Assembly (NCBI GenBank): GCA_951406725.2
Contig: OX597818.1
Location: 25,606,001-25,670,000, forward strand
Direction: 5' to 3'
Length of the DNA stretch: 64,000 nucleotides
Source of the DNA: Octopus vulgaris
Taxonomy: Eukaryota
Shown here: in pieces, positions 1 to 51,797 of the stretch
Numbering within the stretch: the stretch's first letter is position 1
Layout: the number at the start of each line of letters is the position of its first letter
Position numbers and translations under genes: made by a program
The notes under the pieces: generated by a model
Told to the model about the DNA's origin: nothing
What the model saw: only the letters and a program-made list of their open reading frames with translations
Databases searched by the model: none

Positions 1-3000
1 TTGTAAACAACAAAATTTTGAGAACCTAGAAACCTACATAGCTGTCTTGCACCAACTTGCAAAAAACTGAAACTTTGGAGAATTAAAGGACAGACTTATT
101 AGGGATCAAGGTGTTGTTGGTGTTAAAGACGATCTTTTGAGAGAAAAACTTTTAGCAGACAAAAAGCTAACCCATGACAAATGCTTACAGATATCAAAAT
201 AACAAACAAAAGCTATTTCCTCAACTGTCAATGCAACAGGATCCACAATTAATCTGTGTCACAGGACCAAATAATAAAAAAGAGCATCAACATATAAAAA
301 GAAGATGCCTGAGAGAAAGTTCATGCAATGTGGAATGTTCATATTTCACAATAGAAATGACTGCCCCGCCTCAGCAACAAAATGCAGATGGTGTTCAAAA
401 ATAGGACACTACGCAACTGTTTGCAAGAATTTTTCAATGGTTAGGGGAGTTGAAGAGGAAGAACATCATTTCTTAGGTTTATGTTTCTTCGGAAAATATA
501 AATGCAGTTTGTGAAGACAATAAGATAGAACAGCAAGCAAAAATAGTAATCACCACCAAAGTCTGCAGCACAATTGTCGAATTTAGACTGCACACTGGCA
601 CAGATATGACAGTAGTACGTAACTGGTTCTTCAGGAAGAATTCTCCAATAATAAAACCTACAAACAAAAGGTTATATGGACCAGGTCAACACAAAATAAA
701 AGTAATTGGACGTGTAGATGCCACATTGAGTTATGGGAAAGCAACGTCACAACAGGAACTGTACGTAGTGCAAGACTTAGTTGAACTATTATTAGGTGGA
801 TCAGCAATTAAAGGTCTCAATCTATTAAGTAAAATCAATGTGATAAAAAGTGAAGCTCTCCAATACAAAAAAGACTTCCCCAGTGTGCTTACCGGCCTAG
901 GGAAATTGAGACATGTATACAAAATTCACTTGGATGAAACAGCTCAACCTTTCTCAATTACCACCCCCAGATGACAACCACTTACCATGAAGAAGAAAGT
1001 CCAGCAAGAGTTAAAACGATTGGAAAAAGAGAAAATTATCCATCCAGTGAAGTGCCCAACAGACTAGTGTGCTCCCATTGTAGCAGTCCCAAAAAACGAT
1101 GGAAGAGTCAGACTTTGGGTCGACTACACTAAATTAAACGAAAGTGTGAAAAGGGAAAATGTTTCACTTCCTTCAACTGATCAACTTCTTGCTGAACTTG
1201 AAGGAGCTATGAAACTTCACTGTAACAGTGGTTTCCATCAAATAGTTCTGCATGAAGACTCATAGATACTTACCACTTTCATCACACAGTATGGAGAATT
1301 CTGTTATTTACGGTTATCTTTCAGAATAAGCTCTGGACCTGAAATTTTCCACAGTGAAATGTCACACATTGTGTCAGGAATACCAGGGGTCATTTATGTA
1401 CTGGTCAGTGGAAAAACACAAGAGCATGCTAGTGAGTTGAAATTTCTGGGTTATCCAAAGAAGGAATCTGAGTAGATCCTGAGAAACTAAAAGCAATAAA
1501 GGAATTGACCAGACCACAAAATGTGTCTGGGCTAAGAAGGTTGCTTGGTATGGCAAATCATGTTGGCAAATTCGCTGAGACTTTAGTAGAGACGACCAAA
1601 CTAATCCAGGGTCTACTTAAAAAAAAAACCCACTTGGATATGGGACCAGCCTTAAGAAACAGTGTTTTGGATTCTAAAGGAAAAACTGAGCTCTGCACCA
1701 GTACTGATGCATTATAGTGCTGACAAACCAACAAAAGTCTCAGCAGATGCATTGTCTTATTTATGGCTTGGGTGGAGTGCTTCTTCAGAAGGAAGGAGAT
1801 AGCTGGAGATCTGTATTCTATGCATCAAGATCTCTCACTGAGACAAAGCAGAGATATGCCCAGATTGAGAAGGAAGCATTAGCAATCACGTGGCATTGTG
1901 AGAAGTTTGCTGACTTCTTGATAGGATTACCGAAGTTCTTGATAGAAACAGATCACAAGCCTCTACTATCACTGCTAAAGAGTAAACGTCTCGATGGATT
2001 GGCTTCAGGAATCCAGCATTTCCGCATGCACCTAATGAGATCACATACACCGCAGGGAAAAACCTCATTACAGCAGACATCCTATCCAGGACTCCTGACA
2101 GCATACTAACGAAACAAGAGTTCCAGCAGGAGACAGAGACAGACATGTTCGTCTGCTCTATCATAGAGAGCATCTCCGTGAATGACAAACAACTGAAGGA
2201 AATCAGGCAGAAACAAAACACCGATAAATTCTGTGGTCAAGTTATCAACTTCTACAAGATGGACCACTGGCCTGAAGCAGCCACACAAGATCTGGAACTG
2301 AGACCCTACTCGTTTGTACGGCAGTAGCTAACAGTTTATCAGGGACTCTTATTGTATCAGAGCTGACTCATCATCCCCGCAGACTTCCAAAAAGACATCT
2401 TGGATCGTCTACACAAAGGACACCAAGGTATCCTAAAATGCTGAGCACTGGCATGGGACAATGTTTGGTGGCCAGGCCTTTCCAAGCAAATTGCTGAGAA
2501 AATAGGAGGATGTAGTATCTGTGAGAAGGAAAAGAAATATCCACCAAAACCACTACGACCTAAGTTACTTGACTATACATGGCAGAAGGTAGGAACAGAC
2601 CTGTTCAAATTGAAAGGACACAGATATCTATTAGTCACTGACTAATATTCTAGATGGATAGAGATATCTCATCTACAGACAACAATATCAGGCAGTATCA
2701 TTGACAACTGCAAGTCAATATTTGCTAGATATGGTATACCAGAGGTTGTCATTTCTGATAAGGGTCCTCAATTCATATTGTAGGAGTTCTGGGATTTTTC
2801 AAATGTTTATGGCATTTTACACCTCACCAGTAGCCCCCATTATCCGCAAGGAAACGGAGAAGCTAAATGAGTGGTTCAGACAGTTAAAAACCTAAAAAAA
2901 GCAAGTGATTCATGTATCGCACTGCTTAATTATTGCAGTACTCCACTACAACATGGCAGAGTTGTTGATGAATAGAAAACTCAGGACTTGCATTCTAACA

Positions 3001-3674: not shown

Positions 3675-4635
3675 CTAGCAGCATAGCCCGGCGTTGCCCG
3701 GGTATGTAAGAGCCCCTAGTAGGCAACGACTAATCCCAATCTAGTCCTTTCCCTCTAGGGAACGAAGGCGCATGTGTAGGTTACAATGTCTTCTCTTCAC
3801 TCGAATACTTCTGTGTATACGATGTTCCTAGCTGTCCCTTTGGGCGAAAACATGAAAACATCATTGCGCCTCCCAACGCGTGAACAGCCCACGTAGAGTT
3901 GACCGTGGGCGAAGCACTGTTCGCCCAACTGTAACCCAGCGACTTGTAGCGTTTGGCCTTGGGATTTATTGATGGACATTGCGAAGCAGAGTTTAACAGG
4001 AAACTGAGAACGCCTGAAGTGGATTGGTAGGTCAGCGCCCGATGGTTGAAGGTGCATGCGTGGAATGAAGACGTCCTCTCCCTTCTCACAACCGGTAAGT
4101 ATTGTGGCTGTTATTAAATGTGGTGGCAAATGTTTCACAACCAGACGTGTGCCGTTGCACTGTTTAGGTGGAACCAAATTCCTGATGAGCATAATGGGCG
4201 CACCGACTTTTAACTTCAGGATGTGTGGCGGCAGGCCTGGCAGTTCAAGTGAATTCAGGAATTCAACAGGATAATCGGCAAGCTCGGCGGGGTCTGCTGT
4301 CCTATCAATAGATTTGTAGATGTGGACATTACCAGGAATAGCTTCAAGTAGCTGGATATTGATGGAGTTGAGAGTTAAAAAGGTCGAGTTGCGTCCCCTA
4401 GACAGTCTGTGGTTTGTGTTTCTGATTCTCGACCCCATGTCGAATTTATTGATTTTTTTTCAGAACTGGGGGAACTTTTCAAAATTTTCGCTGCGTTAGT
4501 TTTGAATTATGACATTGGGCTATGTGTGTGTCAAGTTTCATCAGAATCGGTTGAAAGCCGTGGTCAGGGTGAGGGTACAACCTAACAGACACACAGACAC
4601 GCAGACAGACAAACTGCCGTTTATATAGAGAGAGA
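3675..4635 (-). mobile_element. Non-autonomous Helitron (961 bp)
   Basis: On - it starts TC (4635), ends CTAG (3678-3675) and sits in an A^T target. Subterminal hairpin CCCGG-cgttgc-CCGGG at 3687-3702. Carries a PIF1 helicase fragment. Confidence 0.9.
3797..4438 (-). CDS. C-terminal fragment of Helitron RepHel PIF1-family helicase (open frame, 213 aa)
   Basis: Motifs LKLKVGAPIMLIRNL, CNGTRL, RSQFPVKLCFAMSINKSQGQTL and HGQLYVGCSRV. Confidence 0.88.
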   Translation of the reverse strand: MGSRIRNTNHRLSRGRNSTFLTLNSINIQLLEAIPGNVHIYKSIDRTADPAELADYPVEFLNSLELPGLPPHILKLKVGAPIMLIRNLVPPKQCNGTRLVVKHLPPHLITATILTGCEKGEDVFIPRMHLQPSGADLPIHFRRSQFPVKLCFAMSINKSQGQTLQVAGLQLGEQCFAHGQLYVGCSRVGRRNDVFMFSPKGTARNIVYTEVFE

Positions 4636-6241: not shown

Positions 6242-6852
6242 TAATAATCCTTACTGTTATAGGCACAAGGCCTGAAATTACATCAACCCCGGTGCTTAAC
6301 TGGCACTTATTTTACTAACCCCAAAAGGATAACAGGCAAAGTCTACTTCAGTGGAATTACTACTACTACTACTACTACTACTAATAATAATAATAATAAT
6401 AATAGTAATTTCAAATTTTAGGAGATAGCCAGCAATTTTGGGAGGGGGGTAAGTCAATTACATTGATCTAGTGTTCAACTGGTACTTATTTTATCAACTC
6501 TGAAAGGATGAAAGGCAAAGTCAACTTTGACAGAATCTGAACTCAGAACACAAAGACAGGTAAAATGGTGCTAAGCATTTTGCCCAGCATGCTAATGATT
6601 CTATCAGTTCACAGCCTTAATGATAATAATCCTTTCTACTATAGGCACAAGAACTAAAATTTGGGGGGAGGGGGCCAGTCGATTAGATCAACTCCAGTAT
6701 GCAACTGGTACTTAATTCATCAACCCTGTAAGGATGAAAAGCAAAACTGACCTTGGTGGAATTTGAACTCAGAATGTAAAAATGAACGAAATGCTGTTAA
6801 ACATTTAGCCCAGTGTGTTAATGATTCTGCCAGCTCACAGCATTAATAATAA
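6242..6852 (-). mobile_element. Three tandem copies of a tRNA-derived SINE (family A) separated by (AAT)n/(TAC)n tails
   Basis: Reverse-complement matches to the copy at 25198-25402 (aaggcggcgagctgacagaaacgttagcacg...gagttcaaat...gactttgcctttcatc). Confidence 0.8.
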
Positions 6853-7211
6853 TACTAAAGTTCAAAGACAGACTTGGAGATTGAAAATCAACAGGATGTG
6901 GAAAATGAAAACCAAAATGAAGGAGAGAAAGTTCACCAGCCATATCCCAAATAACATCAATATCTATACAGTTCAGATGTCCAACTGGGAACAGCCCACA
7001 TACTTGGCAGTTAATATCTTGCCTTTAGTGCCTTAGACTAACAGTTTGGATCCTGGACTTAAGGATACAAAACAGGAAATACGGATAGGAACAATATTAA
7101 ACATTGTCTAATTTTTAGTATTTGACTGATTTTTCCTTGAAAGGATGAAAAGCAAAGTTAAATTCAGTGGAGGTGGTGAGTCTAGGGTATAAAGAAGCAG
7201 AATAGATACAG

Positions 7212-7397: not shown

Positions 7398-8512
7398 AGA
7401 AGAAATGAGGTAATCAGAAGATGGGATGGCTTATATTTACAGATATTTATTTATATATTACATTTTTTATATATGTATATCATATAACTTAGATCATTAG
7501 CGCTTTCTCCCATTCTAGTGGGGTTTTCAAATCAAAATAAGTTCCTTTGTGGGGAATTTTAATCATTTTATAGAGCTTCATAGTGGTGGGGAGGAATATA
7601 AGACAGTACAAGAGGGTGAGGTGGATGAGGAGAAAGTGAGAGAGAAAGCATGTGTGTATGTGTGTGTGTTTGTATCTGAGGTGAGTGCTAAAGAGAAAGC
7701 GGGGGGGGGGGGAGAGGGAAGAAGAAGGAAAGAATTTTTTTGGTCTGCTGGACAGAATATTGACTCCAAGGGGGTTCTAAGAATTTCAGCTTTGACCACT
7801 TAACAGTGTCACTGAGAGTGTGGTGGCAGGGAGGTAGGCCATAAATTATATTTCCTTTTATCATTGTGAGAATGGTCAAATGCTTTTTTGGGTTTAAGAA
7901 TTCTTTCCACTTGTTAAGATCATTTTGTTGAGGTGTGTGTGTGAGTGTCTGTGTGTTTGGAGAAGGGGAGAGAGACAAAAAAAGAAAAAGAAAAATAAGG
8001 GAGGAAGGGGAAAAAATTGTGTTGATATTTATACCACTATATATATATATACATGCTTATATATGAAATATTTGAAAAAAACCTTTTATAGGTTCAAAAT
8101 GAACAACTAAATTACACCATCTTGAAAATTGTATATCATAGGAAAGTTAAAATTAAGTGACAATTAAAAAGTAAAGATGAAGTAAATTATAAAAATAACA
8201 ATGTATATAACAGGCAATATATATATACACACACACACACATATATATATACATATACAGACATATACTAAATGTTCTACTATATTAGATTGTAAATCGA
8301 AAGATGTGTCCTTCAATGTCACTATATATATATATGCTTATACATGAAATATTAGAAAAAAACACCTTCTATCGATTCAAAATGAACAATCAAATTACAC
8401 CATCTTGAAAATTGCATATCATAGGAAGGTTAAAATTAGAATGACAATTGACGAGTAAAGATCAAGTAAATTACAAAAATAATATAATGTATATAACAGG
8501 TAATATATATAT

Positions 8513-8561
<49 letters not shown>

Positions 8562-9569
8562 TATTAAATGTTCTACTATATTATATTGTAAATCGAAAGA
8601 TTTGTCCTTCAATGTATGATGAGATTATTTACTTGATCTTTACTTGCCAATTGTCATTCTAATTTTAACCTTCCTATGATATGCAATTTTCAAGATGGTG
8701 AAATTTGATTGTTCATTTTGAATCGATAGAAGGTGTTTTTTTCTAATATTTCATGTATAAGCATGTATATATATATAGTGACATTGAAGGACACATCTTT
8801 CGATTTACAATCTAATATAGTAGAACATTTAGTATATGTCTGTATATGTATATATATATGTGTGTGTGTGTATATATATATATATTGCCTGTTATATACA
8901 TTATATTATTTTTATAATTTACTTCAACTTTACTTTTTAATTGTCACTTAATTTTAACTTTCCTATGATATACAATTTTCAAGATGGTGTAATTTAGTTG
9001 TTCATTTTGAACCTATAAAAGGTTTTTTTCAAATATTTCATGTATAAGCATGTATATATATATATATAGTGGTATAAATATCAACACAATTTTTTCCCCT
9101 TCCTCCCTTATTTTTCTTTTTCTTTTTTTGTCTCTCTCCCCTTCTCCAAACACACAGACACACACACACCTCCACAAAACGATCAGTGGAAAGAATTCTT
9201 AAACCCAAAAAAGCATTTGACCATTCTCACAATGATAAAAGGAAATATAATTTATGGCCTACTTCCCTGCCACCACACACTCAGTGACACTGTGAAGTGG
9301 TCAAAGCTGAAATTCTTAGAACCCCCTTGGAGTCAATATTCTGTCCAGCAGACCAAAAAAATTCTTTCCTTCTTCCCTCTTCCTCCCCCTCTTTCTCTTT
9401 AGCACTCATCTCAGATACAAACACACACACATGCTATTAAAATTCCCCACATGATATACATATATAAAAAATGTAATATATAAATAAATATCTGTAAATA
9501 TAAACCATCGGATCTTCTGATTACCTCATTTCTTCTAATATATAATACCTGTACATCATCTCCAAACCT

Positions 9570-12210: not shown

Positions 12211-12781
12211 TCCTATTTTAATGAGTGTGCGCATGGCATGTGTGTGTGTATGCATATGCATATATATATATATAGTGTTTGAGTTTATCTAGGACCTAGA
12301 TTGCAAAGTACCAGATTTGTCGCTTACAGGAATGAATTTGCTTTCCGCCCCTTATATATATAAAAAATTACAGGAAATCAAGATTTCTGATTTGGCAGGT
12401 TAAAACAAAAAATTGCCAAAATCTCTTTATAAATGGTAGATTCTTCAATATTTTCGCTGTTTCTGACCAGCATGAAACTATGTAGTGAGCTTATGAGTCT
12501 ATGAACGTATTACAATTAATTCAATATTGCAATTTGTGAACAACAACCTATTGTACATTATTTACATTTGACGGATATTTGTCCTCATCTTGTTTGTTGT
12601 TAACACGTTTCTGTTGATATACCCTCCAGCCTTCATCAGGTGTCTTGGGGAAATTTCGAACCTGGGTTCTCTTTCCTAAGGTATTTTTCATTATATTATT
12701 ATTATTATTATTCAGGTCACTGCCTAGAATCGAACTCGGAATCTTGGGGTTAGTAGCCCGCGCTCTTAACCACTACGCCAC

Positions 12782-12852
12782 GGGCATATGGCGTAGTGGT
12801 TAAGAGCGCGGGCTACTAACCCCAAGATTCCGAGTTCGATTCCAGGCAGTGA

Positions 12853-12854
<2 letters not shown>
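12782..12854 (+). promoter_or_regulatory. tRNA-like Pol III type-2 promoter (pseudo-tRNA, anticodon ACT); mirror copy on - at ~12715-12780
   Basis: A box TGGCGTAGTGG (12789-12799), anticodon arm GGG-CTACTAA-CCC, B box GTTCGATTC (12834-12842). T and acceptor stems are imperfect. Confidence 0.75.
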
Positions 12855-12890
<36 letters not shown>

Positions 12891-12937
12891 TCGAAAAATA
12901 CCTTAGGAATGAGAACCCAGGTTCGAAATTTCCCCAA

Positions 12938-12983
12938 GACATCTGATGAAGGCCGGAGGGTATATTAGCCGAAGCGTTGTGTT
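12938..12983 (+). ncRNA. Minimal type I hammerhead ribozyme (degenerate copy); mirror copy on - at ~12601-12644
   Basis: Two-arm consensus: ACAC-CTGATGA-a-GGCTG-gagggtatat-CAGCC-GAAAC-GTT-GTGT. The + copy has GAAG; the - copy keeps GAAA but has stem II mismatches. Confidence 0.7.
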
Positions 12984-13422
12984 AGCAACAAACAAGATGA
13001 GGACAAATATCTGTAAAATGTAAATAACGTACATAATTCCTCATCTCTTAAATATAGAACTGAACAACGTATTAGTTACAGGTTTTCAATCACTTATATT
13101 TCGGTGAAAGTTACAAGAGAGTGTGAACTTGATACAGGACGAAAAGAGCAAGAAAATTCGTTCGAAGAGAACTGGGGTTCACATTCTTTTACAGCGTATG
13201 ATCGAATAAAGAATGTAATTGCGAGGCGACTCACAACTATTGCCCATTTGCTTTTCTAGTTTTCTTTCTTTTTTTTTGTTAGTAAAAAGTAAAAAAAAAA
13301 AAGAAATGATTTTGGTGACATTTAAATTGAACTATGACTTCTCAGGTAAATTTGCTAAGTCACACAATATTAAATTAAACTTGAAGCTCAGTTCAAATTT
13401 AAGGTTAAGTAATACTATGCAA

Positions 13423-24789: not shown

Positions 24790-25402
24790 ATAATAATAAT
24801 AATAATAATTCTTTCTACTATAGACACAAGGCCTGAAATTTTGAGCAAGGGAGCTAGTTGATTATATGGACCCTAGTGCTCATCAATTATTTCTTTCATT
24901 GATCCTGAAAGGATGAAAGGCAAAGTCAACTTTGGCAGAATTTGAACACAGAACACAAAGATGGACGAAATGCTGCCAAGCACTTTGTCTAGCATGCCAA
25001 CAATTCTGCCTGCCCACCCAAACATTGTAGGGCTCAATTACACAGATGTATTTAATTGTTTAAGTTTTGAAAGAAAGAAGGATCTAAAAGCCAGATTAGA
25101 ATTTGGGGCTTCAAGGGCCCCTCTAACCAAACAACATCAAAGTACGAAACATTTGAATCCAAGAGCTATTCCAACTTAACAATATCTTTGATATTCAAAG
25201 GCGGCGAGCTGACAGAAACGTTAGCACGCCAGGCGCAATATTTAGCGGTATTTCATCTGTCTTTATCTTTCTGAGTTCAAATTTCGCCGAGGTCGACTTT
25301 GCCTTTCATCGATAAATTAAGTACCAGTTGCGTACTGGATTCGATCTAATCGACTGGCCCACTCCCCCAAAACTTCGGGCCTTGTGCCTAGAGTAGAAAA
25401 GA
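24790..25402. mobile_element. Two SINE family A copies (24790-25020 on -, 25198-25402 on +)
   Basis: The + copy retains many CpGs (ggcggcgagctgacagaaacgttagcacgccaggcg), suggesting it is young. Confidence 0.8.
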
Positions 25403-26111
25403 ATATCTTTGATACTCAGCAGAAACAGTATGAAACAAAGTGGGTTACCTCGTTGAACTCTTAAAGCAGAAAGAATATAATAGCTGCCAGAGTATATATA
25501 TGAGAGGCTTCTCGAAAAGCCTGCCATGCAAAGTAGCGGATCTTTGAAGCTTTTTTTTTTTATATTGAGTTGAGAATGACATCGCGTCTAATTGAATTGA
25601 AGGTTTTTTAAAAATCGATTTTGAGAACTATCTCGACCACTGGGAGTGTGTTCACGAAAATCTGTGGCGTGAAAGGTTGCTTCAGACTCTAGTTTATTAT
25701 CAACCTCGAGTCGAACGGGTGTGAATTTGGAAAAGAGATAATAGGAGACGTGAGCTTTCTTAAGTGCACATAACTGCTTTAGGACAGTGATCATTTAAGG
25801 AAACAATCACAAAGCAATGACGAACCAAAATGCGTTATGTAGGGAAGGATGCTTGGGTGAGAGTACTCTCCCTTACATTATTTGTTTATGAAATTGCGTG
25901 AGACACCTATAGTAAAAAACTTTCTCTACAAGCCGTCATTCTATTAATGTTACTAAATGTTCATTCGTGATAAGACAGAAATGGACACTTTTCTTCATTT
26001 TGAGTGAAACACTCAAATTACCTTTTCTGAATTAATGTGAATATAATTTAATTACCTAGTTATCTCATCTTGATTCCTTTTTACCCCGTTCCAGAAAACG
26101 TGCTTTACGCA

Positions 26112-27461: not shown

Positions 27462-28797
27462 AATTAAACTCGGAATATTGGGGGTCAGTAGCCTGTACAC
27501 TTAACCACTACGCCATATGACCGTGGGTAATTATGGAGTGAATTTTAGGGCTTATAAATCTAATATTTTCCTATCCTTTCTTAATACCAGTTTCCATATG
27601 CTATTCATATCTGCACTTGGTTTGCTTAGGAGATTGTTGTGTCCTAGCATACGTGCTGCTTCTTTTAGTTTTCATATTTTCCAATGGTGTTCTCTGTCTA
27701 TTATTTTAACTTCATCCCACAAGGGGAGATGGTCTCCATTTTTCCATATATGATCAGCTATACCCAATTTGTCAATATCTCCTTGTGTCACAGCTTTGTG
27801 ATGTTCGTCTACCCTTATTTTGAGGGGGCAGCATGTTTCGCCTTTGTATGACCTACCACAACTGCATGGGATGGAGTACATGCAGTCTTTGGCCATATTC
27901 TCTTCAATTGATGGTTTTACTCGAAGGAGATATTTGCAAAGTGTTGTATTACTCTTGAATACTGTCCTGATGTCATATGGGCCGCATATCTTTTGCACCT
28001 TTTCGAAAAGGCCTTTCACATAGGGTAGACAGACTGTGGACAGTTTGTTGGTTTCATCCTCTCTTTTCTTCATAATTGGAGTAGACAGTATGTTTTTGGG
28101 GTAGTTTTTGCTTAATAGATTGTTACTGAGCTTGATCATTTCTTCGTGGTGTGTATCAAAATCGCTACTTGTATTCTTTGCTCAATGTTTTAGGCACTGA
28201 GCAATCCCTCTCTTTACACTGTATGGATGGTGGGAATTGAATTTGAGGTATCGTCCAATGAAGGTTGGCTTGCGGTATACAGATATCCTGAATCCATACT
28301 TGATGTGTGTTATTGATATGACCAGGAATGCTAGCTGATTGTCTTTTCCCTTTTCCACTGAACTGTAAGGATGGCTTTATTGAGTTCACATGATCTAACG
28401 GCACATGGGCATCTTCCTGGTGGTGCCAGAATATAAAGGTGTCATCAACATATCACAGCCATAGAGTTGGTTTTAGTGGTGTTGAGCCTAAAGACAAATT
28501 CTCAAAGTATTCCATGTATATATTGGCTATTATCAGTGATAACGGTGAACCCATAGCTAAACCCTCTTCTTGTCGATATATTGATAAATCGGGTATAGCT
28601 GATCATGTATGGTTAAATGGAGACCTTCTTCCCCTGTAGGATGAAATTAAAATAATAGACAGAGAACACCACTGGAAAATAGGAAAACTAAAAGAAGCAG
28701 CACATATGCTAGGACACGATAATCTAAGTAGACCGAGTACTGATATGAATAGCATATGGGAACCAGTATTAAGGAAGGATAGGAAAATATTAGATTT
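27462..28797 (-). mobile_element. Penelope-like element (RT C-terminus plus GIY-YIG endonuclease) with an inverted duplication at its 5' break
   Basis: GLAMGSPLSLIIANIYMEYFE, RT motif 5 region (~28440), and CLPYVKGL...MYSIPCSCGRSYKGET...IRVDEH...IADH. 28578-28797 is the reverse complement of ~27557-27780. Confidence 0.9.
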
Positions 28798-28899
28798 ACT
28801 TGAGGCTAAATGACCTACTTCTGGTTATTGCAAGAAATGGAATTTGTACAGGTATAATTATACATGTCTCTACATGTCACATGTAGCTTTCCACTAGTA

Positions 28900-30043
28900 T
28901 TCATTTGTCTTTTACAGCTGCTGAAGTGGACTAATATGTTATAATGGAGGCAGTTGAATGCAGATCAGTGATCAGGTTCTTATACTTGAAAGGTTGTACA
29001 CCAAAAGAGACTATTGATGAGATGAAGGAAGTTTATGGTGATGATGCACCATCATACAGTATAATCAAGCATTGGCATCACCAGTTCAAATATGGTTGAA
29101 CATTGGTGGAAATTGTCCCTATTCCTGGATGACCACATTCTGCCATTGATGACAACACCATCCATAAAGTGGAAGCCGCCATTTTGTAGGATCACTGCAT
29201 AACTATTTGGCAACTAACCCAAGAAGTAAAGATAAGTGTAGCCTCCATGGAAAAAATCATTCATGACCATTTTCACATGCGGAAGTTGTCTGCACATTGG
29301 ATTCTCCAGATGCTCACACCTTTTCAGAAACAGTAATGAGTCAGTTGCTCCCAGGTTCTTTTGGCAACATGCCAAGAAAACAAGGAGGACTTTTTCACCA
29401 GATTTATCATACAGGATGAAACATGGGTCCATCACTATGATCCTGAGACTAAAATCCAGTTGAAGTAATGGCAGCATAACTCACCACCTCCAGAGAAGGC
29501 TTGTGTCCAACTCTCAACAAGCAAGGTGATGCTCACAGTCTTTTGGGACTAGTGCAGAGTGGTGAATGATAGATTTTCTGGCAAAGGGCACAATGAATAA
29601 TGGTGTGCTTCTGTGCTTCAGAAACAGAGGTGTGGCATGCTGACCAAAGGAGTCTGCCTCCTCCAAGATAATGCCCCAGTTCATAATGTGCATGTTATGC
29701 AGATGAAAGCACACTCTTGCAGCTATGAATCCTTCCTCATCCCTCTTACTCTTTCGACCTCGCACCATCTGACTTCACCTGTTTCCAACCATGAAGTCTT
29801 TTTTTGAAGGGGAAGCACTTTTTGGATGATGAACTGATTTCCAACGCAACCTACTGACTTCTACAGACAAGGTCTTCACAGCTGCATAAAGCAATTGGAG
29901 AAGTGTGTCACCATTAGTAGTGGCAATGTAGAAGTGTGTCACCATTGGTGGTGATGATTTAGAGAAGGACTAATTATGCCAAGTTTTGTTTATCCCAATC
30001 CTTGGGAAGTGGGTCAGGGGAAATCTTTAATGAACACCCCTCA
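28900..30043 (+). mobile_element. Decayed mariner, related to the 19528-20811 element
   Basis: IQDETWVHHYDPETK and LLQDNAPVHN with stops. The right TIR ttaatgaacacccctca is followed by TA. Confidence 0.88.
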
Positions 30044-30425
30044 TAGGACTAACCTACTGAACTTTCAATAAAACAAAGCCTTCAAGAAATCACATGAAAA
30101 ATGACTTTGTAATTTGTCAACCAAGTGTTCACTTTGAGAATGTTTTGTGCTTGCTATTCTGTGATGAAAGTGTTTGTGCATGTAATGCTCAATAGGTATA
30201 GAGCAATAGCCTTTTACTGTATTTGTGGATACTACATGCATATTTAAAAACAACGATAACATGTGTTAACATAATTTGGTCTTGTATGAAGATACAAAGG
30301 TTGGGACTTTTATGTTTCCTCAATAGTTTCCAGTGAAGTACTAAGTAACTATGAAGACGTCAGCACATCTAAAAAAATAAAAAAGAAACTGTACTACTAC
30401 TCATAATTTTATTATTTTTCTGCAG

Positions 30426-32574: not shown

Positions 32575-34900
32575 TGACGTGGCTTTGTGGCTGGGGATTT
32601 CAATGGGCATGTTGGATGGCAGACTGGTATCTTCCATGGTGTCCGAGGGGGCCATGGAATTGATTCCTGAAACAAAGAGGGAACAAGGCTACTGGATGCA
32701 AATAACCTATTGATCTACAACACCAACTTCAGGAAGCCAGCCAGCCACCTGATAACCTACCAATTGGGTGACTGTGCTAGCAACATCAATTACATTCTCG
32801 CCAGACAGTGGGATGCATGGTTGATCCTAAATACAAAAATACTCCCTGGTGAAGAATGTACCCCACCAGCATAGACTAGTCATTAGTGATTTTAGACTCG
32901 AGGTCAGAAGGATGTCGAGAAGCAGACCAATTTGGAAATTTAAAGACCCTTCATATGGTCAGAGATTTAGGGACATCTTGAGAAAGTTGATGAGAGGGAG
33001 GAGGAACTACAGAATTGTGACATAGAGGGCAACTGAGAATTCCTGCAGGACAGCTTGCTGAGTGCCACAGACCAAATCTGCAGCTGGTGCCAAGTCCCAT
33101 CTAGACGTAGGGTAACATTAATGGTGGAACAATGTGGCAGACAGGGCCATTAGAGCAAAGAAACAGGTTTGGAAGAGTGGGGGTAGCAGGGGACTGTATC
33201 AGATAGTCAGAAGGGAAGTTAGGAGACAGGTATATCTAAAGTTACGGAAAGAGTCATAACCCAACTAATTAGGGAGAGAGTTAGACTAGATGAGATACAA
33301 CTTGGTTTTGTGCCAGGGAGAAGCACCACTGCTACTATATTTCTGGCAAAGCAGCTGCAGGATAAATACATAGCCAAAGATATACCTCTGTATTTGGCCC
33401 TTGTTGACTTGGAGAAAGCCTTTGACAGGGTCCTTTGATCCCTTATCTAGTGGTCAATGTGGAAGCTAGGGATAGACAAGTGGTTGGTGAGAGCTGTACA
33501 AGCCCTGTACAGGGATGCTACCAGTAAGGTGAGGGTTGGCAACGAGTACAGTGAAGAATTGAGGGTACATGTAGGGGTTCACCAAAGATCAGTGCTTGGC
33601 CCCATCTTGTTCAAGTCCTCCAGACAATAACAGGAATTTTAGACAGGCTGTCCCTGGGAGCTCCTCTAAGCTGATGACCTTACTCTGAATTACTACCAGA
33701 ACTAGAGAAGTTCCAGGTATGGAAGCAAGGTCTAGAATCAAAAGGCCTTAGAATTAATCTAGCAAAAACCAAAATCATAGTAAGTAGGATGGGAGACAAG
33801 TCACAAATCCCTTCAGGTAGATCTGTAGAAAAGGCATAGTTAGAAACTCCATAAGATGCACCTGGTGTAAGCTTTGGATACATAAAAGGTGCAGCAATAT
33901 TAGAAGATTGTTAACAGGGAAGCTAGTTTTTGTATATGGAAGATACGCAGGTGCAATAAACGCAGAAAATAGTCTCCATCAACTACCAGAGGGGCAAACT
34001 AGAGGTATTAGATAGCTTCCGTTATCTAGGTAACCAAGTTAGTACTGGAGGCTCCAAGAGCGTAACTGAGAATAAAATTAGGCTGGGCCAAGTTCAGAGA
34101 GCTCCTATCTCTGCAGGTAACAAAGGCCTCTCTCTTCAAGTGAAAGACAGATTTATGATGCTTATGCTACAAGGCAGTGAAACATGGTCTGTGACAGTTG
34201 AGGACATGTGTAGGCTTGAAAGCAATGAAGCCAGTATGTGTCACTGGCTGTGCAATGTCTGTGCATGTTTGACAAAGTGTAAGCATCTTGAGAGAAAAGT
34301 TAGGCATAAGAGGCATCAGATGTGGTTTGCAAGAGTCACGACTGGTGGTCAGGTGATGCATATGGATGAGAACAACTGTGTGAAGAAGTACTGATCTCTA
34401 ACTGTGGAGGGAACCTGTAGTAGAGGTAGACCCAGGAAGACCTGGGATGAAGTGGTGAAGCATGATCTTCAAACTTTGAGCCTCACAGAAGCAATAACTG
34501 GTGATCGAGATCTTTGGTATTATGCTGTGCTTGAGCAGACCTGTCAAGCCAAGTAAAATCGTAGTCATGGCTGATGCCAGTGTCATGTAACTGACACCCA
34601 TACCAATGGCACGTAAAGAGCACCATTCGAGCATTGGGCCTCATGGAGGCAAAGTGGTCAAGTTCCTTTCAAGTGTTGGGCCTCCCGGAGGCAATGACTG
34701 AAACCTTTGGCATTATATTGTACTTAAGAAGACCCATGAAGCCGAGCAAAATTGCAGTCATGGCAGATACTGGTGTCATCCAAATCAGGCTGGAAAACCA
34801 TGCCAAATCAGACTGGAGTCTGGTGCAGCCTTCCAGGTTGCCAGCCCTGGTCAAACTGTCCAACCCATGCCAGCGGAGATTAAATGATGATGATGATAAT
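32575..34900 (+). mobile_element. Decayed RTE LINE with internal deletions in MRPS7 intron 3
   Basis: GDFNGHVG, VDLEKAFDRV, VGVHQRSVLGP, RGRPRKTWDEVV; (GAT)n tail at ~34885. Confidence 0.9.
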
Positions 34901-40649: not shown

Positions 40650-43060
40650 GCTTAAACCAGCCAGTCACCTAATCACTTATCAGTCTGGTGAGCACATAAG
40701 CCAGATTGACTACATCCTCACCAGACGAGATAGATGGATGCTAAAAAATGCTAAGTCTTTCCCCAAGTGAAGAGTGTTCAACCCAACATAGGTTACTAGT
40801 TAGTGACTTCAGAATTAGACCTAGAAAGACCTGGAGAAATAAACCAATCTTGAAAAGAAGACTATGGAAGCTCAAAGACCCAGCAAGCAGACAAAAATTT
40901 AGAGATTTGCTAATGGAAGCTTCTGACGAAAGATAGGTTGAGTTGGGGACATATAGCTTAGAGGACAACTGGAAGTTCTTGAGGGACAATCTACTGAGAG
41001 CTATGAATGAAATCTGTATTTGGTGCAGAGTCCCAGCTAGACCAAAAGTGACAAGATCGTGGAGCAAGGAGGTTGACAGTGTTATAAAGCAAAGAGACAG
41101 GCCAGAAAGAATTGGAAAATGGTGGAAGCAGAGAATTGTATCAGGTAGCCAAAAAGGCAGCTAACGTCAGGTATGCATAGCTAAATGTAAGAGACTTTCA
41201 AATGTCCTACAGCATGAGGATCAGAGGCGTGTGGTGTTCAGGACTACAAAGCATGTATCAGAGAAAATAGATATGTGGTTGGTAAGAAATGTGTGCAGAT
41301 GGATAATGGTATGCTTGCACTTAGTGACTCAGAGAAGAAAGATGCATGGAAGTGTCACAGTGAAAAGTTACTAAATGTGGAAAATGAATTTAACACATAT
41401 CAAACCAGTTGAGGGACCTGCCATCACAGTCAATAGCAGCATAATAGATAAGGCAATTGAGGACATGAAGACAAGGAAAGCCCCTGGGCCATCAGGAATC
41501 ACTGCCAAAATGATTAAAAATTTCTGGTGAAGTACAATACAGCTTAGTCATCTGAATAGTTAATTAGGTTATTCAGGAAGGCACCATACCCAACAACTGG
41601 TTTAGTAGCATTATAGTAATCTACTTATAAGGGTAAAGGTGATATCTTAGATAGAAACAACTACAGAGCTATTAAACTGCTAGACCATGTCCTGAAAATT
41701 ACTGAGAGGGTTGTAGTTCAATTGGTTAGAAATAGAATTAAACTAGATAAGATGCAGTTTGGTTTTGTGCCTGGGAAGAGTACCACAGATGCCATCTTCC
41801 TAATGAGACAGCTGCAGGAAAAGTACTTAGCCAAAAATAAGCCATTGTGCTTAGCCTTCGTCATCCTGGAGAAAGCTTTTGACAGAGTTCCCTGTTCTGT
41901 TATATGGTGGTCTCTAAGGAACCTAGGAGTAGAGGAGTGGCTTGTTAGAGCTGTCCAAGCCACGTACAGTGGTGCTGTTGGTAAGGTGAGAGTCTGCTAT
42001 GAATACAATGATGAGTTTAGCGTTCAGGTAGGGGTTCACCAGAGCTCAGTTCTCAGCACATTCTTATTCATTTTAGTCCTCCAGGTCATAAAAGAGGAAT
42101 TCAAAACTGGGTACCTGTGGGAACTACTATATGCTGACGGTCTTGCTCATATTGTAGAATATTTGGCAGAATTGGAGAAGAAATTGCAGGTATGGAAAAC
42201 AAAACCTGGAATCAAAGGGCCTTAAAGTTAACCTAGCAAAGACAAAAGTGGTTGTTAGTAAGAAAATAAAACTTCCTTTCCATCAGGTAAATGGTTCTGC
42301 CCTGTATGTAGGAAAGGAGTTGGAAGAAATTCCATTCGCTGCACCCAGTGTAAACTATGGATGCATAAGAGATGCAGTGGTATCACAGGTAGATTAACAG
42401 ATAGAGTAGTCTTTGTGAGTGGCAGATGTGCAGGAACAACAAGCACTAAGAGCATATGGGTTTTAAATTCTCTCAAATGCCCAGAAGTCTGTCTTGAGGT
42501 TGTAGATAGTTTCTATTGCCTAGGTGACCAAATTAGCAATGGTGGAGGATGCTCTGAAAGTATTGTTTCTAGAATAAGAATTGGGTGGAAGAAGTTTACA
42601 GAGCTTTTACCTCTGTTGGCAATAAAAGGCCTCTCACTCTCAGAATGAAAGGTAGACTATATGATGCTTGTATACAAACAGCTATACTCCATGGTAGCAA
42701 GACATGGGATCTGAATGCTGGAGACATGCGTAGAGTGGAGAGGAACGAAGGTAGGATGCTCCGTTGGATGTGCAACATCAGTGCACATGTACAACAAAGT
42801 GCAAATGTATTTAAAGAAAATGTAGCATACAAGAGAGTAGACTACATTAGTTTGGACATGTGATGTGTATGAATAAGGACAGCTGCATAAAGAAGTGCCA
42901 ATCATTGAAAGTGGATGGTGCCCGTAGAAGACAGAGACCCAGGAAGACATGGGATGAAGTGGTAAGGTCTGATCTCAGGATGTTAGACCTCACAGAGGAA
43001 ATAACCATAGACTGAGACGTCTAGCAATATGAAGTTCTTGAGAAGATCCACCCACATCAG
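40650..43060 (+). mobile_element. Long decayed RTE LINE (EN end, RT, PHD-like finger, C-terminus)
   Basis: SQIDYILTR, QHRLLVSDF, QFGFVPGKSTTDAIF, VGVHQSSVLS, ELLYADGL, LEVVDSFYCLGD. Confidence 0.94.
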
Positions 43061-48819: not shown

Positions 48820-50710
48820 ATCATCATCATCATCATCATCGTTTAACGTCCATTTTCCATACTGGCATGGGTTGGACAGTTTGACTGGGGCCTGGGAAGC
48901 CAGGAGGCTGCACCAGACCCCAATCTGATCTGGCAGTGTTTCTACAGCTTGATGCCCTTCCTAACACCAACCACTTCAAGACTGTAGTGGGTGCTTTTTA
49001 CGTGCCACCAGCACAGGGGCCAGAGGAGCTGACATCGACCATGATTGGATGGTGCTTTTTACGTGCCACCGGCAGGGAAGCCAGTTAAAGCAGCATTGGC
49101 ATCTACCACGTTTGGATAGTGCTTTTTACATGCTACCAGCACGGGGCTCACAACTACAATTTCCATTTGAATTGATTTTGATATTGCTGATGTTGATGTA
49201 CTTAACTCAATAGGTCTCTTCAAGCATGGAATGTCGCCCTACAATCCAAGGTACTTTTGAGTGGGTTGGTTATGCAACACTGATGTAGACTCACTTTATT
49301 TGCTGGGTCTTCTCAATCACAGCATACCATCAGAGGTCTCGATCTTTTGTCATTGCATCTGTGAGGCCCAATGTTCAAAGGTCATGCTTCACCACCTCAT
49401 CCCTTGTCTTCCTGGGTCTCCCTCTACCTCGGATTCCTTCCACTGTTTGGGAGTGCCACTTCTTCACACAGCTCTCCTTGCCCATCCACTGTATTTATCC
49501 ATAACAACGCAAACATCTCTCTTGCACACTGCATCTGATGCTTCTTATGTCTAACATTTCTCTGAGGGCGCTTACACTCTGTTGTGTGTTCACACTGGCA
49601 TTACACATCCAGTGGATCATGGTAGCTTCATTTCTTTCAAGCCTATGCATGTCTTCAGTAGTCATGGCCCATGTTTCACTGCCATGGAGCATGGCAGTTT
49701 GCACACATGCATCATACAATCTACCTTTCACTCTGAGCGAGAGGCCCTTTGTCACCAGTAGTGGTAGAAGCTTTCTGAACTTTGCCCAGGCTATTCTTAT
49801 TCTAGTGGTAACACTCTCTGAGCATCTACCCCCACTACAGACTAGGTAGCAGAAGCTATCAACTACTTCTAGTTTCTGCCCCTGGCATGTGATGGTGTCT
49901 GTTTTCTGAGCATCTGTGGTGTTTATTGCTCCTGTGCATATGCTGCACATGAAAGCTATCTTCCTGATTAATCTTCTTTTGGTGTTGCTGCACCTCTTAT
50001 GTGTCCATAGCTTACAATGGGTACATCTTATGGAGTTTCTATCTACACCTTTTCTACAGGTCGAGTAGGGCCACCTACCTGAGGGTGTGTGATGTGTTGC
50101 CTTCCTACTTACTAGACTTTGGTCTTTGCAACATTGACTCTAAGGCCCTTCAATTCTAAACCTTGCTTCCACACATGAAGTTTCTTTTCTAGTTCTGGTA
50201 GTGATTCTGCTATGAAGGCCAGGTTATCAGCATAAAGGAGTTCCCTGAGGCAACCTGTCTTGATTTTCTCTGTTATTGCCTGGAGGACTATGATGAATAA
50301 AAGGGGACTGAGGGCTGATCCTTGGTGGACCCCTACTTCTACTTGGAATTCTTCACTATACTCATTTCCAATCCTAACCCCACTAACGGCATCTCTGTAT
50401 AGGGCCTGTAAAGTCCTTATTAAATATTCATCAATCCCAAGTTTCCACATCGCCCACCAGATAAAAGATTGGGGGACCCTGTCAAAGGCTTTCTCTAAGT
50501 CCACAAAAGCCAAATATAGGGGTTTATCTTTGGATAGGCATTTCTCCTGCAGTTGCTGTACCAGGAATATAGCATCAGTGATGCATCTATCTGGCACAAA
50601 ACCGAACTGCATCTCATCTAAGCAGACTCTCTCCCTAATTAGTTGGGCTATGATCCTCTCTGTGACCTTCATTACCTGATTAGTTGGGCTATGACCCTCT
50701 CCATGACCAA
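48820..50710 (-). mobile_element. RTE LINE, RT to 3' tail
   Basis: FVDLEKAFDRVP, VGVHQGSALSPLLF, ELLYADNL; tandem 3' UTR units and (CAT)n at 48819-48840. Confidence 0.94.
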
Positions 50711-51797
50711 TTATACTAAAAATAATTCAATTTCAGTAGGCAAGGAAAACTTCTGTTCTCTTTCTTAGTCTATTAATAAACAGTTTTCTTTTTATCCAAT
50801 ATTGGTTTAATTAATTTTAACTAATGTTTTCCATATTTTGTACAAAACTATCCAAAATCTTTATCTGTACAATACATTTCCAAATTCTTTTCATTAGGTT
50901 ACCAACTTTCTCACTTCCTTCTCTTACCAAAATTTGCTTATTGTAGACAATTATGACTGCAGCTGTTGCAGCATGCAATCAATACATATATAATGAACTA
51001 AAGAGCCTTTTTGGTTTGTTACTTGAATGTATTGCAAAAACATTCCTAAATGAAATTCTGTGTCAAAAATGTTTCCTTTATTTTCAATTGTGAGTTATTG
51101 AAATTAGAAATTTAGTGTGCAAACTGAAGCTGGTATTTGGGAAATAGATTTGTGTAGATTAATAGGAGATGGATGTGTAGAATATTGACAACCATATGGA
51201 TATATTAAGTGTTTGAAAAATGAGGGGATATAGTATATCAGATTAGTAGTAGAGTTGAATTAGCTGAATGGATAAGGTGTCAGCCTCATTGCTAAAAGGT
51301 TATGATACATATTATACGAAAGTAAAACAGATAGGTATTGAAAAAGAATGATTCAGACATAGCTCTGAATTGATGGGAAGATGAGAACTTCATATTGTCT
51401 AATACAAGAATGAATAAATGAATCCATTTACGTGGAAAAACAAAACAAAAATATAAAGTGATTTAAGTATTAGATTGTGGTGAGTTAAGATTAATGACAT
51501 TATTAATCATTAATAGTTTATTTAAAAACATTTATATTAATCATATTTTTAACATTTATTAACATGATTAATTTTCATAAAATTAACATTTTTGTTAGCA
51601 ACATAAAGCATGTTAATGTAAAACAATTGCTCTAAAAATATACAAAATATCTAAATTTGCAACAAAAAAATAAACATTCCTTTTGTACTAGTATGGAAAA
51701 AGGATATAAAATAGTCTCAAAATACAAGGAAGTCTGAAGTATCAAGTAGTTCACTCATTCTTTAATACTTTATATTAATATTCTCAATCAACTTTAA

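What the first reader, a model, noticed from the sequence alone, without database searches (positions are those of the whole stretch)
12552..13062. Palindromic module: tRNA-like Pol III promoter + (AAT)n + hammerhead ribozyme in each arm
Seen: two ~230-245-bp arms placed head-to-head around an 8-bp spacer. Each arm reads A box, ACT anticodon arm, B box, (AAT)n, a second GGTTCGAA, then a hammerhead core (ACAC-CTGATGA-a-GGCTG..CAGCC-GAAAC-GTT-GTGT). The + arm has no TTTT from the head until 13083, past the ribozyme, and ends in an unpaired 29-bp tail. Established: PLE pseudo-LTRs are often inverted, have 3' tails and carry minimal type I hammerheads with a palindromic stem III thought to work as dimers; Schistosoma SM-alpha couples a Pol III promoter to a hammerhead. 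Inference: this is a self-transcribing, self-cleaving, retrozyme-like unit mobilised by PLE machinery. It could give divergent Pol III transcripts, or a long dsRNA hairpin within the host intron.
Basis: partly seen in the sequence, partly recalled or inferred. Interest (0 to 1): 0.85.

Follow-up and report, generated by a model that had tools for sequence, protein, structure and literature searches.

The report
Penelope retrotransposon with tRNA-type promoter
This palindrome is a decayed two-armed copy of the end of a protein-coding Penelope-type jumping gene whose copies mostly begin at a tRNA-like sequence and whose 2.7-kb sense strand lacks the T-runs that stop RNA polymerase III, so the whole element was likely copied from polymerase III RNA, a route that the papers I searched describe only for short non-coding elements.

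Summary
The palindrome is real, but it is not a stand-alone retrozyme. Each arm is the pseudo-LTR of an autonomous Penelope-like element (PLE; RT + GIY-YIG), with roughly 2x10^4 arms in this genome. The tRNA-like head follows the ORF stop in 29 of 30 ORF-bearing loci. The hammerhead, the 'second B box' and the tail are the first codons of the ORF. The '8-bp spacer' is the right arm's own 5' end. The unit sits in an 11-bp target duplication with one long and one short arm, the family's usual insertion form. The family hammerhead is a perfect minimal type I motif, but both local copies are broken, and copied RNAs were mostly uncleaved. The new part: 60 of 68 copies that reach the head stop at its 5' end. 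The 2,730-nt element also has no T4 run on its sense strand (5.2 expected; other PLEs show an excess). Both fit a tRNA-derived Pol III promoter driving a protein-coding retrotransposon. This is inferred: no raw RNA reads were available, G-runs are also scarce, and Repbase/Dfam could not be checked.

The parts
12542..12552 (.). left target-site duplication (11 bp, one mismatch to the right copy)
12552..12780 (-). short arm: pseudo-LTR from the A box (tRNA-like position +8) to the pre-tail stop site
12603..12643 (-). degenerate minimal hammerhead (cleavage triplet deleted, stem II broken)
12726..12780 (-). tRNA-like head of the short arm, A box to B box; positions +1..+7 missing
12778..12780 (.). 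3-nt microhomology at the head-to-head junction
   Evidence: sequence
12778..13062 (+). long arm: pseudo-LTR from -4 of the tRNA-like head to the tail end
12782..12856 (+). tRNA-like head (+1 = 12782; A box 12789-12799; ACT loop 12813-12819; B box 12834-12843); predicted internal Pol III promoter
   Evidence: 5'-end pile-up
12857..12890 (+). (AAT)n run, variable in length among copies
12909..13062 (+). first 51 codons of the PLE ORF (ATG at 12909; two stops in this copy); contains the second GGTTCGAA, the hammerhead and the tail
   Evidence: 48% identity over 42 columns to the N-terminus of P0003, E = 7e-8
12939..12982 (+). minimal type I hammerhead with A15.1 changed to G and a stem II mismatch; cut would follow 12978
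13032..13062 (+). PLE 'tail': ORF sequence between the two preferred 3' ends
13063..13073 (.). right target-site duplication
27467..28580 (-). second, ORF-bearing copy of the same PLE family: RT C-part, GIY-YIG region, stop, then the tRNA-like head (cut off at the B box)
28575..28798 (+). inverted 5' piece of that second copy

Best explanation
The palindrome is one decayed insertion of a Penelope-like retrotransposon: two copies of its pseudo-LTR joined head to head inside a target-site duplication, likely made when two cDNAs, primed from the two ends of the cut target, ran off the 5' end of an RNA that was likely started by RNA polymerase III at the tRNA-like head. SHOWN: the unit is head - (AAT)n - ATG - hammerhead-in-ORF - tail - RT - GIY-YIG - stop - about 30 nt - head again. 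Copies end at two fixed 3' sites, mostly start at the head, and were copied from uncleaved RNA. The sense strand has no T4 run. INFERRED: (a) the A/B boxes set the start near -6, 13 nt before the A box; (b) Pol III reads through the T4-free 2.7-kb unit into the next pseudo-LTR; (c) the RT starts internally at one of two sites in the ORF's 5' part, as shown in vitro for the anole Poseidon, so the first site yields 250-285-nt head-to-tail copies like these arms and the downstream site yields ORF-bearing copies; (d) the two cDNA ends pair through microhomology or the self-complementary leader. How the uncapped RNA would be translated is open. The local hammerheads are predicted inactive.
For: Head directly after the ORF stop in 29 of 30 loci found with the ORF 3' part. 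Tail continues into the ORF N-terminus. L043 has a 569-aa open frame with RVT_1 (E = 3e-6, under the curated cut-off) that aligns over 575 columns at 40% with P0069, across its GIY-YIG domain. Target duplications of 9 nt or more in 43 of 66 palindromes versus 2.8% in shuffled pairs, and 60 of 66 have one arm ending at the tail end and the other before it. 5' ends in the first 94 of 1,678 exact B-box hits: 60 of the 68 that reach +7 stop in -16..+7, with modes at +1 (12) and -7/-6 (12); 8 run on towards the ORF. Stop rate 7.5%/nt there versus 0.8 downstream and 0.3 upstream. 25 of those 60 have no detected adjacent inversion. A second, partly overlapping sample gives 21 of 29. T4 runs: 0 in the 2,730-nt column majority, 5.2 expected, P = 0.005; 23 versus 121 expected and no T5 in 30 natural copies, 55.7 kb; 80 other PLE ORFs have 628 versus 425 expected; P = 0.002 under a fit to 45 T-matched PLEs. 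A same-genome LINE has 6 runs in 2,973 nt and 2.2/kb versus 0.45/kb. Internal two-site RT start, two-strand extension and use of uncleaved RNA: PMC11167929.
Against: No transcript evidence: only contigs were on offer and none is on record as RNA. The copies descend from one lineage, so the T4 result is one data point. Codon-aware nulls are weaker: P = 0.15 and 0.22 for the two ORF halves with codon usage kept, 0.086 and 0.056 with third-base frequencies. The control LINE ORF is also somewhat below its codon-aware expectation (1 versus 2.7-3.5). G4 runs are also scarce (18 versus 59 in copies; 0 versus 3.1 in the majority, P = 0.12). 2 of 80 control PLEs also have no T4, over 1.3-1.4 kb. An ATT precedes -6, and ATT just after the ORF-pLTR junction is the preferred endonuclease cut in PMC11167929, so the boundary could be a cut site. 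The tRNA stems are decayed and no parent tRNA could be assigned (45-47 of 75 identities to Arg, Ala, Thr among 34 host tRNAs). Copies average 91% identity to the majority (best 95%), so the family may be extinct.
Confidence: 0.6

Rival explanations
1. Ordinary Pol II-driven PLE. A tRNA-derived SINE once inserted behind the stop codon and is carried as a passenger. The 5' boundary is an endonuclease cut at the ATT or a fold-back hot spot at the self-complementary leader, and the lack of T-runs is chance or avoidance of splice and polyadenylation signals.
For: ATT lies immediately before -6, matching the cut preference in PMC11167929. PLE promoters are known to lie in the pLTR (PMC6765202; PMC8557442). 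G4 runs are also scarce. Codon-aware T4 tests are modest.
Against: 5' ends have an equal mode at +1 and spread to +7, away from the ATT, and many abut unique flank with no inverted partner. Other PLE ORFs have an excess, not a deficit, of T4. It needs two coincidences: a boundary at the tRNA 5' end and a terminator-free unit.
Confidence: 0.22
2. Two-polymerase model. The head is a working Pol III promoter but makes only short head-to-tail RNAs (a built-in SINE), which explains the many short copies. The full-length RNA is Pol II or read-through.
For: Short copies far outnumber ORF copies: 8 of 68 run past the head, and pLTR depth is several-fold to several-hundred-fold above ORF depth. Kojima argues that Pol III processivity limits such elements to about 1.3 kb (PMC10886601). 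It avoids the uncapped-mRNA problem.
Against: It leaves the T4-free ORF unexplained. Of the three full-length-type copies whose 5' pLTR reaches the head start, two begin at +1 and +4 (L084, L065). Short and ORF-linked copies show no clear diagnostic differences.
Confidence: 0.13
3. One reading: an independent non-coding, self-transcribing, self-cleaving retrozyme-like unit that replicates through cleaved or circular RNA and works here as divergent transcripts or a dsRNA hairpin.
For: The family hammerhead is a complete minimal type I motif, intact in core and stems in 22 of 105 copies. Both arms keep A and B boxes. A read-through RNA would form a 230-bp hairpin.
Against: The module is the pLTR and ORF start of an autonomous element. 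Both local ribozymes are broken. No 5'-end pile-up at the cut: 2 of 84. Core positions decay like their neighbours (92.5% versus 91.1%) with no compensatory pairs.
Confidence: 0.05

Closest known systems
Penelope/Poseidon-type EN+ PLEs, e.g. anole Poseidon PAc (PMC11167929; parts 1-2 of 4 of the text read)
   Same: RT followed by GIY-YIG; pLTR from partial tandems; hammerhead overlapping the ORF start; two internal RT start sites giving an optional 30-40-nt tail; inverted 5' copy; AT-rich targets; uncleaved RNA as template.
   Different: The pLTR begins with a tRNA-derived A/B-box head. A+B boxes follow the ORF in 0 of 33 other PLE loci versus 5 of 30 here by one strict pattern. The whole sense strand lacks T4.
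Minimal hammerheads of metazoan PLEs (PMC4209133; part 1 of 4 and passages read)
   Same: Short helix I, unpaired base before stem II, loop-less palindromic helix III. That paper already notes paired motifs 100-700 bp apart on opposite strands, attributed to truncated PLEs.
   Different: No promoter or tRNA link appears in the passages found. The two local copies are mutated.
TRIMp3: Cassandra, Helenus, Ajax (PMC10886601; passages read)
   Same: A small-RNA-derived Pol III promoter inside the terminal repeat, so a transcript can run from one repeat into the next.
   Different: Those are short non-autonomous LTR elements, and the paper expects autonomous partners to use Pol II. This one is a coding, non-LTR-type PLE.
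Schistosoma Sm-alpha/Sj-alpha SINE-like elements (passages in PMC6765202, PMC2770079)
   Same: tRNA-derived Pol III promoter followed by a hammerhead; tens of thousands of copies.
   Different: Non-coding, tandem and cleaved to monomers. Here the hammerhead lies inside an ORF and was not used to make the copied RNA.
Animal non-LTR retrozymes (PMC7229834, passages; bioRxiv 10.64898/2026.07.22.740005, part 1 of 5 and passages)
   Same: pLTR-related short units with a type I hammerhead, proposed to be mobilised by PLEs.
   Different: Retrozymes are head-to-tail arrays giving circular RNA. These copies are single or head-to-head and match the autonomous pLTR.

Membership tests
EN+ Penelope-like element | single ORF with RT and C-terminal GIY-YIG | tested here: met
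   569-aa frame in L043 with RVT_1; full-length alignment to P0069 including its GIY-YIG; Pfam GIY-YIG does not hit our own C-terminus directly
EN+ Penelope-like element | pseudo-LTR at both ends from partial tandems | tested here: met
EN+ Penelope-like element | inverted 5'-truncated copy and optional 30-40-nt tail | tested here: met
   49 of 94; 3' ends 42 pre-tail and 24 tail end of 72; 60 of 66 asymmetric
Penelope/Poseidon clade | RT phylogeny with named clade members | not tested
   no named references in hand; the RT-EN linker aligns without a Zn-finger insert to unnamed homologues
Minimal type I hammerhead (family level) | C3-A9 and G12-A15.1 core, NUH triplet, stems I and II, palindromic stem III | tested here: met
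   column majority of 105-114 copies
Minimal type I hammerhead (this locus) | intact core and stems | tested here: not met
   + arm A15.1G; - arm triplet deleted
Minimal type I hammerhead | covariation in stems | tested here: inconclusive
   copies decay neutrally; no compensatory pairs within the family
Minimal type I hammerhead | self-cleavage as dimer | not testable with these tools
   needs in vitro assay
Non-LTR retrozyme | non-coding unit separate from an autonomous element | tested here: not met
   unit = pLTR plus first 51 codons
Non-LTR retrozyme | head-to-tail arrays with a hammerhead per unit | tested here: not met
   none seen in the 30 loci; 0 of 72 copies extend more than 15 nt past the tail
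Non-LTR retrozyme | circular RNA | not testable with these tools
   no raw reads
tRNA-derived SINE / Pol III type 2 unit | A and B boxes at tRNA spacing, start just upstream of the A box | tested here: met
   boxes; 5'-end pile-up
tRNA-derived SINE / Pol III type 2 unit | no internal T4 terminator | tested here: met
tRNA-derived SINE / Pol III type 2 unit | Pol III transcription shown | not testable with these tools
   no RNA or ChIP data
tRNA-derived SINE | non-autonomous, with its own lineage | tested here: not met
   one weak differing column between 45 short and 47 ORF-linked segments
tRNA gene | intact cloverleaf | tested here: not met

The most novel reading that the evidence does not exclude
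An autonomous, protein-coding retrotransposon whose full-length 2.7-kb genomic RNA is an RNA polymerase III transcript. A PLE captured a tRNA-type promoter in its pseudo-LTR, purged every T4 terminator from its ORF, and through internal RT initiation turns out its own SINE-like short copies. It would be a LINE and its SINE in one unit, and a natural Pol III message that must be translated without a cap.
Probability: 0.45. Interest if true: 0.82.

Novelty: new variant of a known kind. Interest (0 to 1): 0.62.

Why it matters
The working rule is that autonomous retrotransposons use Pol II (or host read-through) and only short non-coding passengers use Pol III; PMC10886601 states this expectation on grounds of processivity. 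A coding element built around a Pol III promoter would break the rule and raise the question of how an uncapped RNA is translated. It also gives a concrete route by which tRNA-headed, PLE-mobilised non-coding units could arise. Separately, the family gives a genome-scale check of the in vitro PLE mechanism. One long and one short arm inside one target duplication (60 of 66), and 5' ends that ignore the ribozyme cut, are what two-ended priming from two internal start sites on uncleaved RNA predicts. The single locus is a decayed copy with no sign of function.

Tried and rejected
Rfam and ARAGORN on the window found nothing at threshold. Parent tRNA: my recalled guess of tRNA-Thr(AGT) was not upheld; Arg, Ala and Thr score alike among 34 host tRNAs of seven amino-acid types. 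Expression: no RNA holder listed. Contigs of 4 runs from three coded organisms cover the element but cannot show start, strand or level. tRNA-headed relatives elsewhere: 54 of 80 metagenome PLE loci were scanned with Rfam and gave two tRNA hits (L234, L284). Both lie upstream of 5'-truncated ORFs and are followed by T-runs, so they are not in a pLTR position. A relaxed ARAGORN scan was pure noise. My first A/B pattern was wrong (0 of 30 on the family itself) and was redone; it remains insensitive (5 of 30). No usable relatives in prokaryote or viral contigs. DNA of the closest proteins (P0001-P0005, 55-68% identity) could not be fetched. A protein search for a second PLE family in this genome returned only this family (30 of 30 loci). 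A separate SINE subfamily was not detected. A hammerhead-made 5' end was rejected. No host gene was found around the locus. Literature: ten searches found no PLE with a tRNA-derived promoter, judged mostly from listings. Repbase, Dfam, most subscription papers and all supplements were not seen and may already hold this family.

Full report
1. Observation. The inverted repeat is real: arms 12552-12780 and 12789-13033 are 88% identical, with a fold z-score of -43. Both arms carry A box, ACT loop, B box, (AAT)n and a hammerhead-like stretch. The + strand has no T4 until 13083. Several details need correcting. The 8-bp 'spacer' is the right arm's own start, and the arms overlap by 3 nt at 12778-12780. 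An 11-bp target duplication with one mismatch flanks the whole palindrome. Rfam and ARAGORN call nothing at threshold. No host exon was found (63 of 131 frames scanned).

2. What it belongs to. The genome is 2.8 Gb. From its size and from repeats I recall, the host is probably a cephalopod; this was not tested. Two exact probes give 1,678 and 3,758 hits. Dividing by the share of copies with an exact match (5 of 42; 12 of 67) gives about 14,000 heads and 21,000 arms. In three loci of the first search, and at window 27467-28580, the head follows a reading frame for RT and an endonuclease. A search with that frame returned 30 loci; in 29 the head follows about 30 nt after the stop codon, and the thirtieth keeps its first 12 nt. 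L043 holds a 569-aa open frame with RVT_1 that aligns end to end at 40% with a homologue carrying Pfam GIY-YIG. At the other end, the 'tail' runs on into the ORF N-terminus. The ATG lies at 12909, so the second GGTTCGAA, the hammerhead and the tail are the first 51 codons. This frame matches the N-terminus of the 847-aa homologue P0003 (E = 7e-8 for the pair). The module is therefore the pseudo-LTR of an autonomous PLE with a unit of about 2.7 kb. Long copies average 91% identity to the column majority, best 95% (103 segments), so the family is old.

3. Why a palindrome. In the first 94 position-ordered hits of the B-box probe, 49 have an inverted piece of the element directly upstream. Of the 72 that continue into the body, 42 end 22-50 nt before the tail end, 24 end at it, and none runs more than 15 nt further. 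Of 66 palindromes, 43 have a target duplication of 9 nt or more (2.8% in shuffled pairs), and 60 have one long and one short arm, as here. PMC11167929 (parts 1-2 of 4 read) shows in vitro that a PLE protein cuts and extends both target strands. It starts reverse transcription at two internal sites that bracket the tail, and it uses uncleaved RNA. I infer that each arm is one cDNA primed from one end of the cut target, one from each start site, and that the two were joined at their far ends. Inverted copies, tails and opposite-strand hammerhead pairs are known PLE traits (PMC8557442 passages; PMC4209133 part 1 and passages).

4. The hammerhead. The column majority is a complete minimal type I motif: 4-bp stem I, extra A before a 5-bp stem II, loop-less palindromic stem III, GUU triplet. 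Of 105 copies spanning it, 56 keep the core and 22 keep core and stems. Core columns are 92.5% conserved against 91.1% for neighbours, with no compensatory changes, as expected for dead copies. In a second sample anchored 3' of the ribozyme (first 84 of 3,758 hits), 80 arms cross the cleavage site and 2 begin within 3 nt of it. Cleavage did not make the RNAs that were copied.

5. The unusual part: the head. Of 68 copies that reach position +7 of the tRNA-like head, 60 stop between -16 and +7, with modes at +1 (12) and -7/-6 (12); 8 continue towards the ORF. The stop rate is 7.5% per nt there, 0.8% downstream and 0.3% upstream. Ends at -10 to -16 look like short fold-backs. 25 of the 60 have no detected inverted neighbour. 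The second sample, which shares some loci, gives 21 of 29. This is where a type 2 Pol III promoter starts (established knowledge, recalled). The prediction that a Pol III template lacks oligo-T holds for the whole unit. There are 0 T4 runs in 2,730 nt against 5.2 expected (P = 0.005), and 23 against 121 with no T5 in 30 natural copies. Controls go the other way: 80 other PLE ORFs have 628 against 425, and their longest T4-free stretch is 1,821 nt. A fit to 45 T-matched PLEs gives P = 0.002. A same-genome LINE has 6 runs in 2,973 nt. No A+B pair follows the ORF in 33 other PLE loci with room, against 5 of 30 here by the same strict pattern.

6. Against. The copies are one lineage, so this is one observation. 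Codon-aware nulls give P = 0.15 and 0.22 (usage kept) or 0.086 and 0.056 (third-base frequencies) for the two halves; the majority frame has one break, so the halves were tested apart. The control LINE is also a little low by that test. G4 runs are scarce too (18 against 59; majority 0 against 3.1, P = 0.12). Two of 80 controls have no T4, over shorter spans. An ATT sits just before -6, the preferred cut of the anole enzyme. The tRNA stems are decayed and the parent is unresolved. The first sample is tied to one 27-mer variant and both samples to one chromosome. No raw RNA was available. Translation of an uncapped RNA is unexplained.

7. Comparison and novelty. It is a member of the EN+ PLEs by every structural feature tested; clade placement was not tested by tree. 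It works like Cassandra/Helenus in putting a small-RNA promoter in the terminal repeat (PMC10886601 passages). It resembles Sm-alpha in pairing a tRNA head with a hammerhead (passages). But it is coding, and it fails the retrozyme tests. Ten paper searches found no PLE with a tRNA-derived promoter. An octopus repeat annotation lists Penelope families without such detail in the passages seen (PMC13282606); its supplements, Repbase and Dfam were not seen. Earlier notes of this scan describe non-coding tRNA-bearing units with PLE-type insertions in other genomes (unchecked); an autonomous tRNA-headed PLE would be a plausible source of such units.

8. Verdict. The locus is an ordinary dead PLE insertion (confidence about 0.95). 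The family is a new variant with a tRNA-type head at its transcript start. Pol III initiation at the head: about 0.65. Pol III transcription of the whole coding unit: about 0.45. Interest 0.62.

Noticed in passing
window 27467-28798: ORF-bearing copy of the same PLE with an inverted 5' piece; a 95% identical copy lies about 60 kb away on the same contig (G000:C5:25572240-25573286), possibly a local duplication.
   Followed up: partly
window 7658-9432: 1.8-kb near-perfect palindrome (91% over 1,830 columns) with nested shorter repeats and an AT microsatellite near the centre.
   Followed up: no
L092, L098, L100-L103 and others (22 of 94): Heads whose (AAT)n run is not followed by the PLE body but by other sequence, several looking like other repeats; suggests recombination or insertion at AAT microsatellites.
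   Followed up: no
family hammerhead, position 7: The usually free core position is A instead of U in 54 of 301 aligned rows over all loci but only 7 of 111 in the B-box sample, hinting at a subfamily.
   Followed up: partly
window 19601-20662 (-): 354-aa open mariner transposase frame (Transposase_1, HTH_48) with inverted ends near 19494 and 20845; a diverged copy at 28943-30045.
   Followed up: partly
window 3800-4459 (-) and 477-2106 (+): Pif1 helicase fragment (Helitron-like) and an LTR-type pol fragment with RT RNase H.
   Followed up: partly
window 22056-23483, 32602-34541, 40654-43050, 49306-50726: Several copies of an abundant LINE (14,042 candidates genome-wide), used as T-run control.
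   Followed up: partly
window 6277-6858, 16692-17055, 17534-18067, 24785-25406: Another dispersed repeat family next to AAT runs, with internal ~230-nt repeats and inverted pieces; could be a further PLE-type or retrozyme-like unit.
   Followed up: no
L249, L292, L236, L281: A few PLE ORFs from other organisms are also poor in T4 (0-1 runs in 1.3-2.3 kb) without a detected tRNA head.
   Followed up: partly
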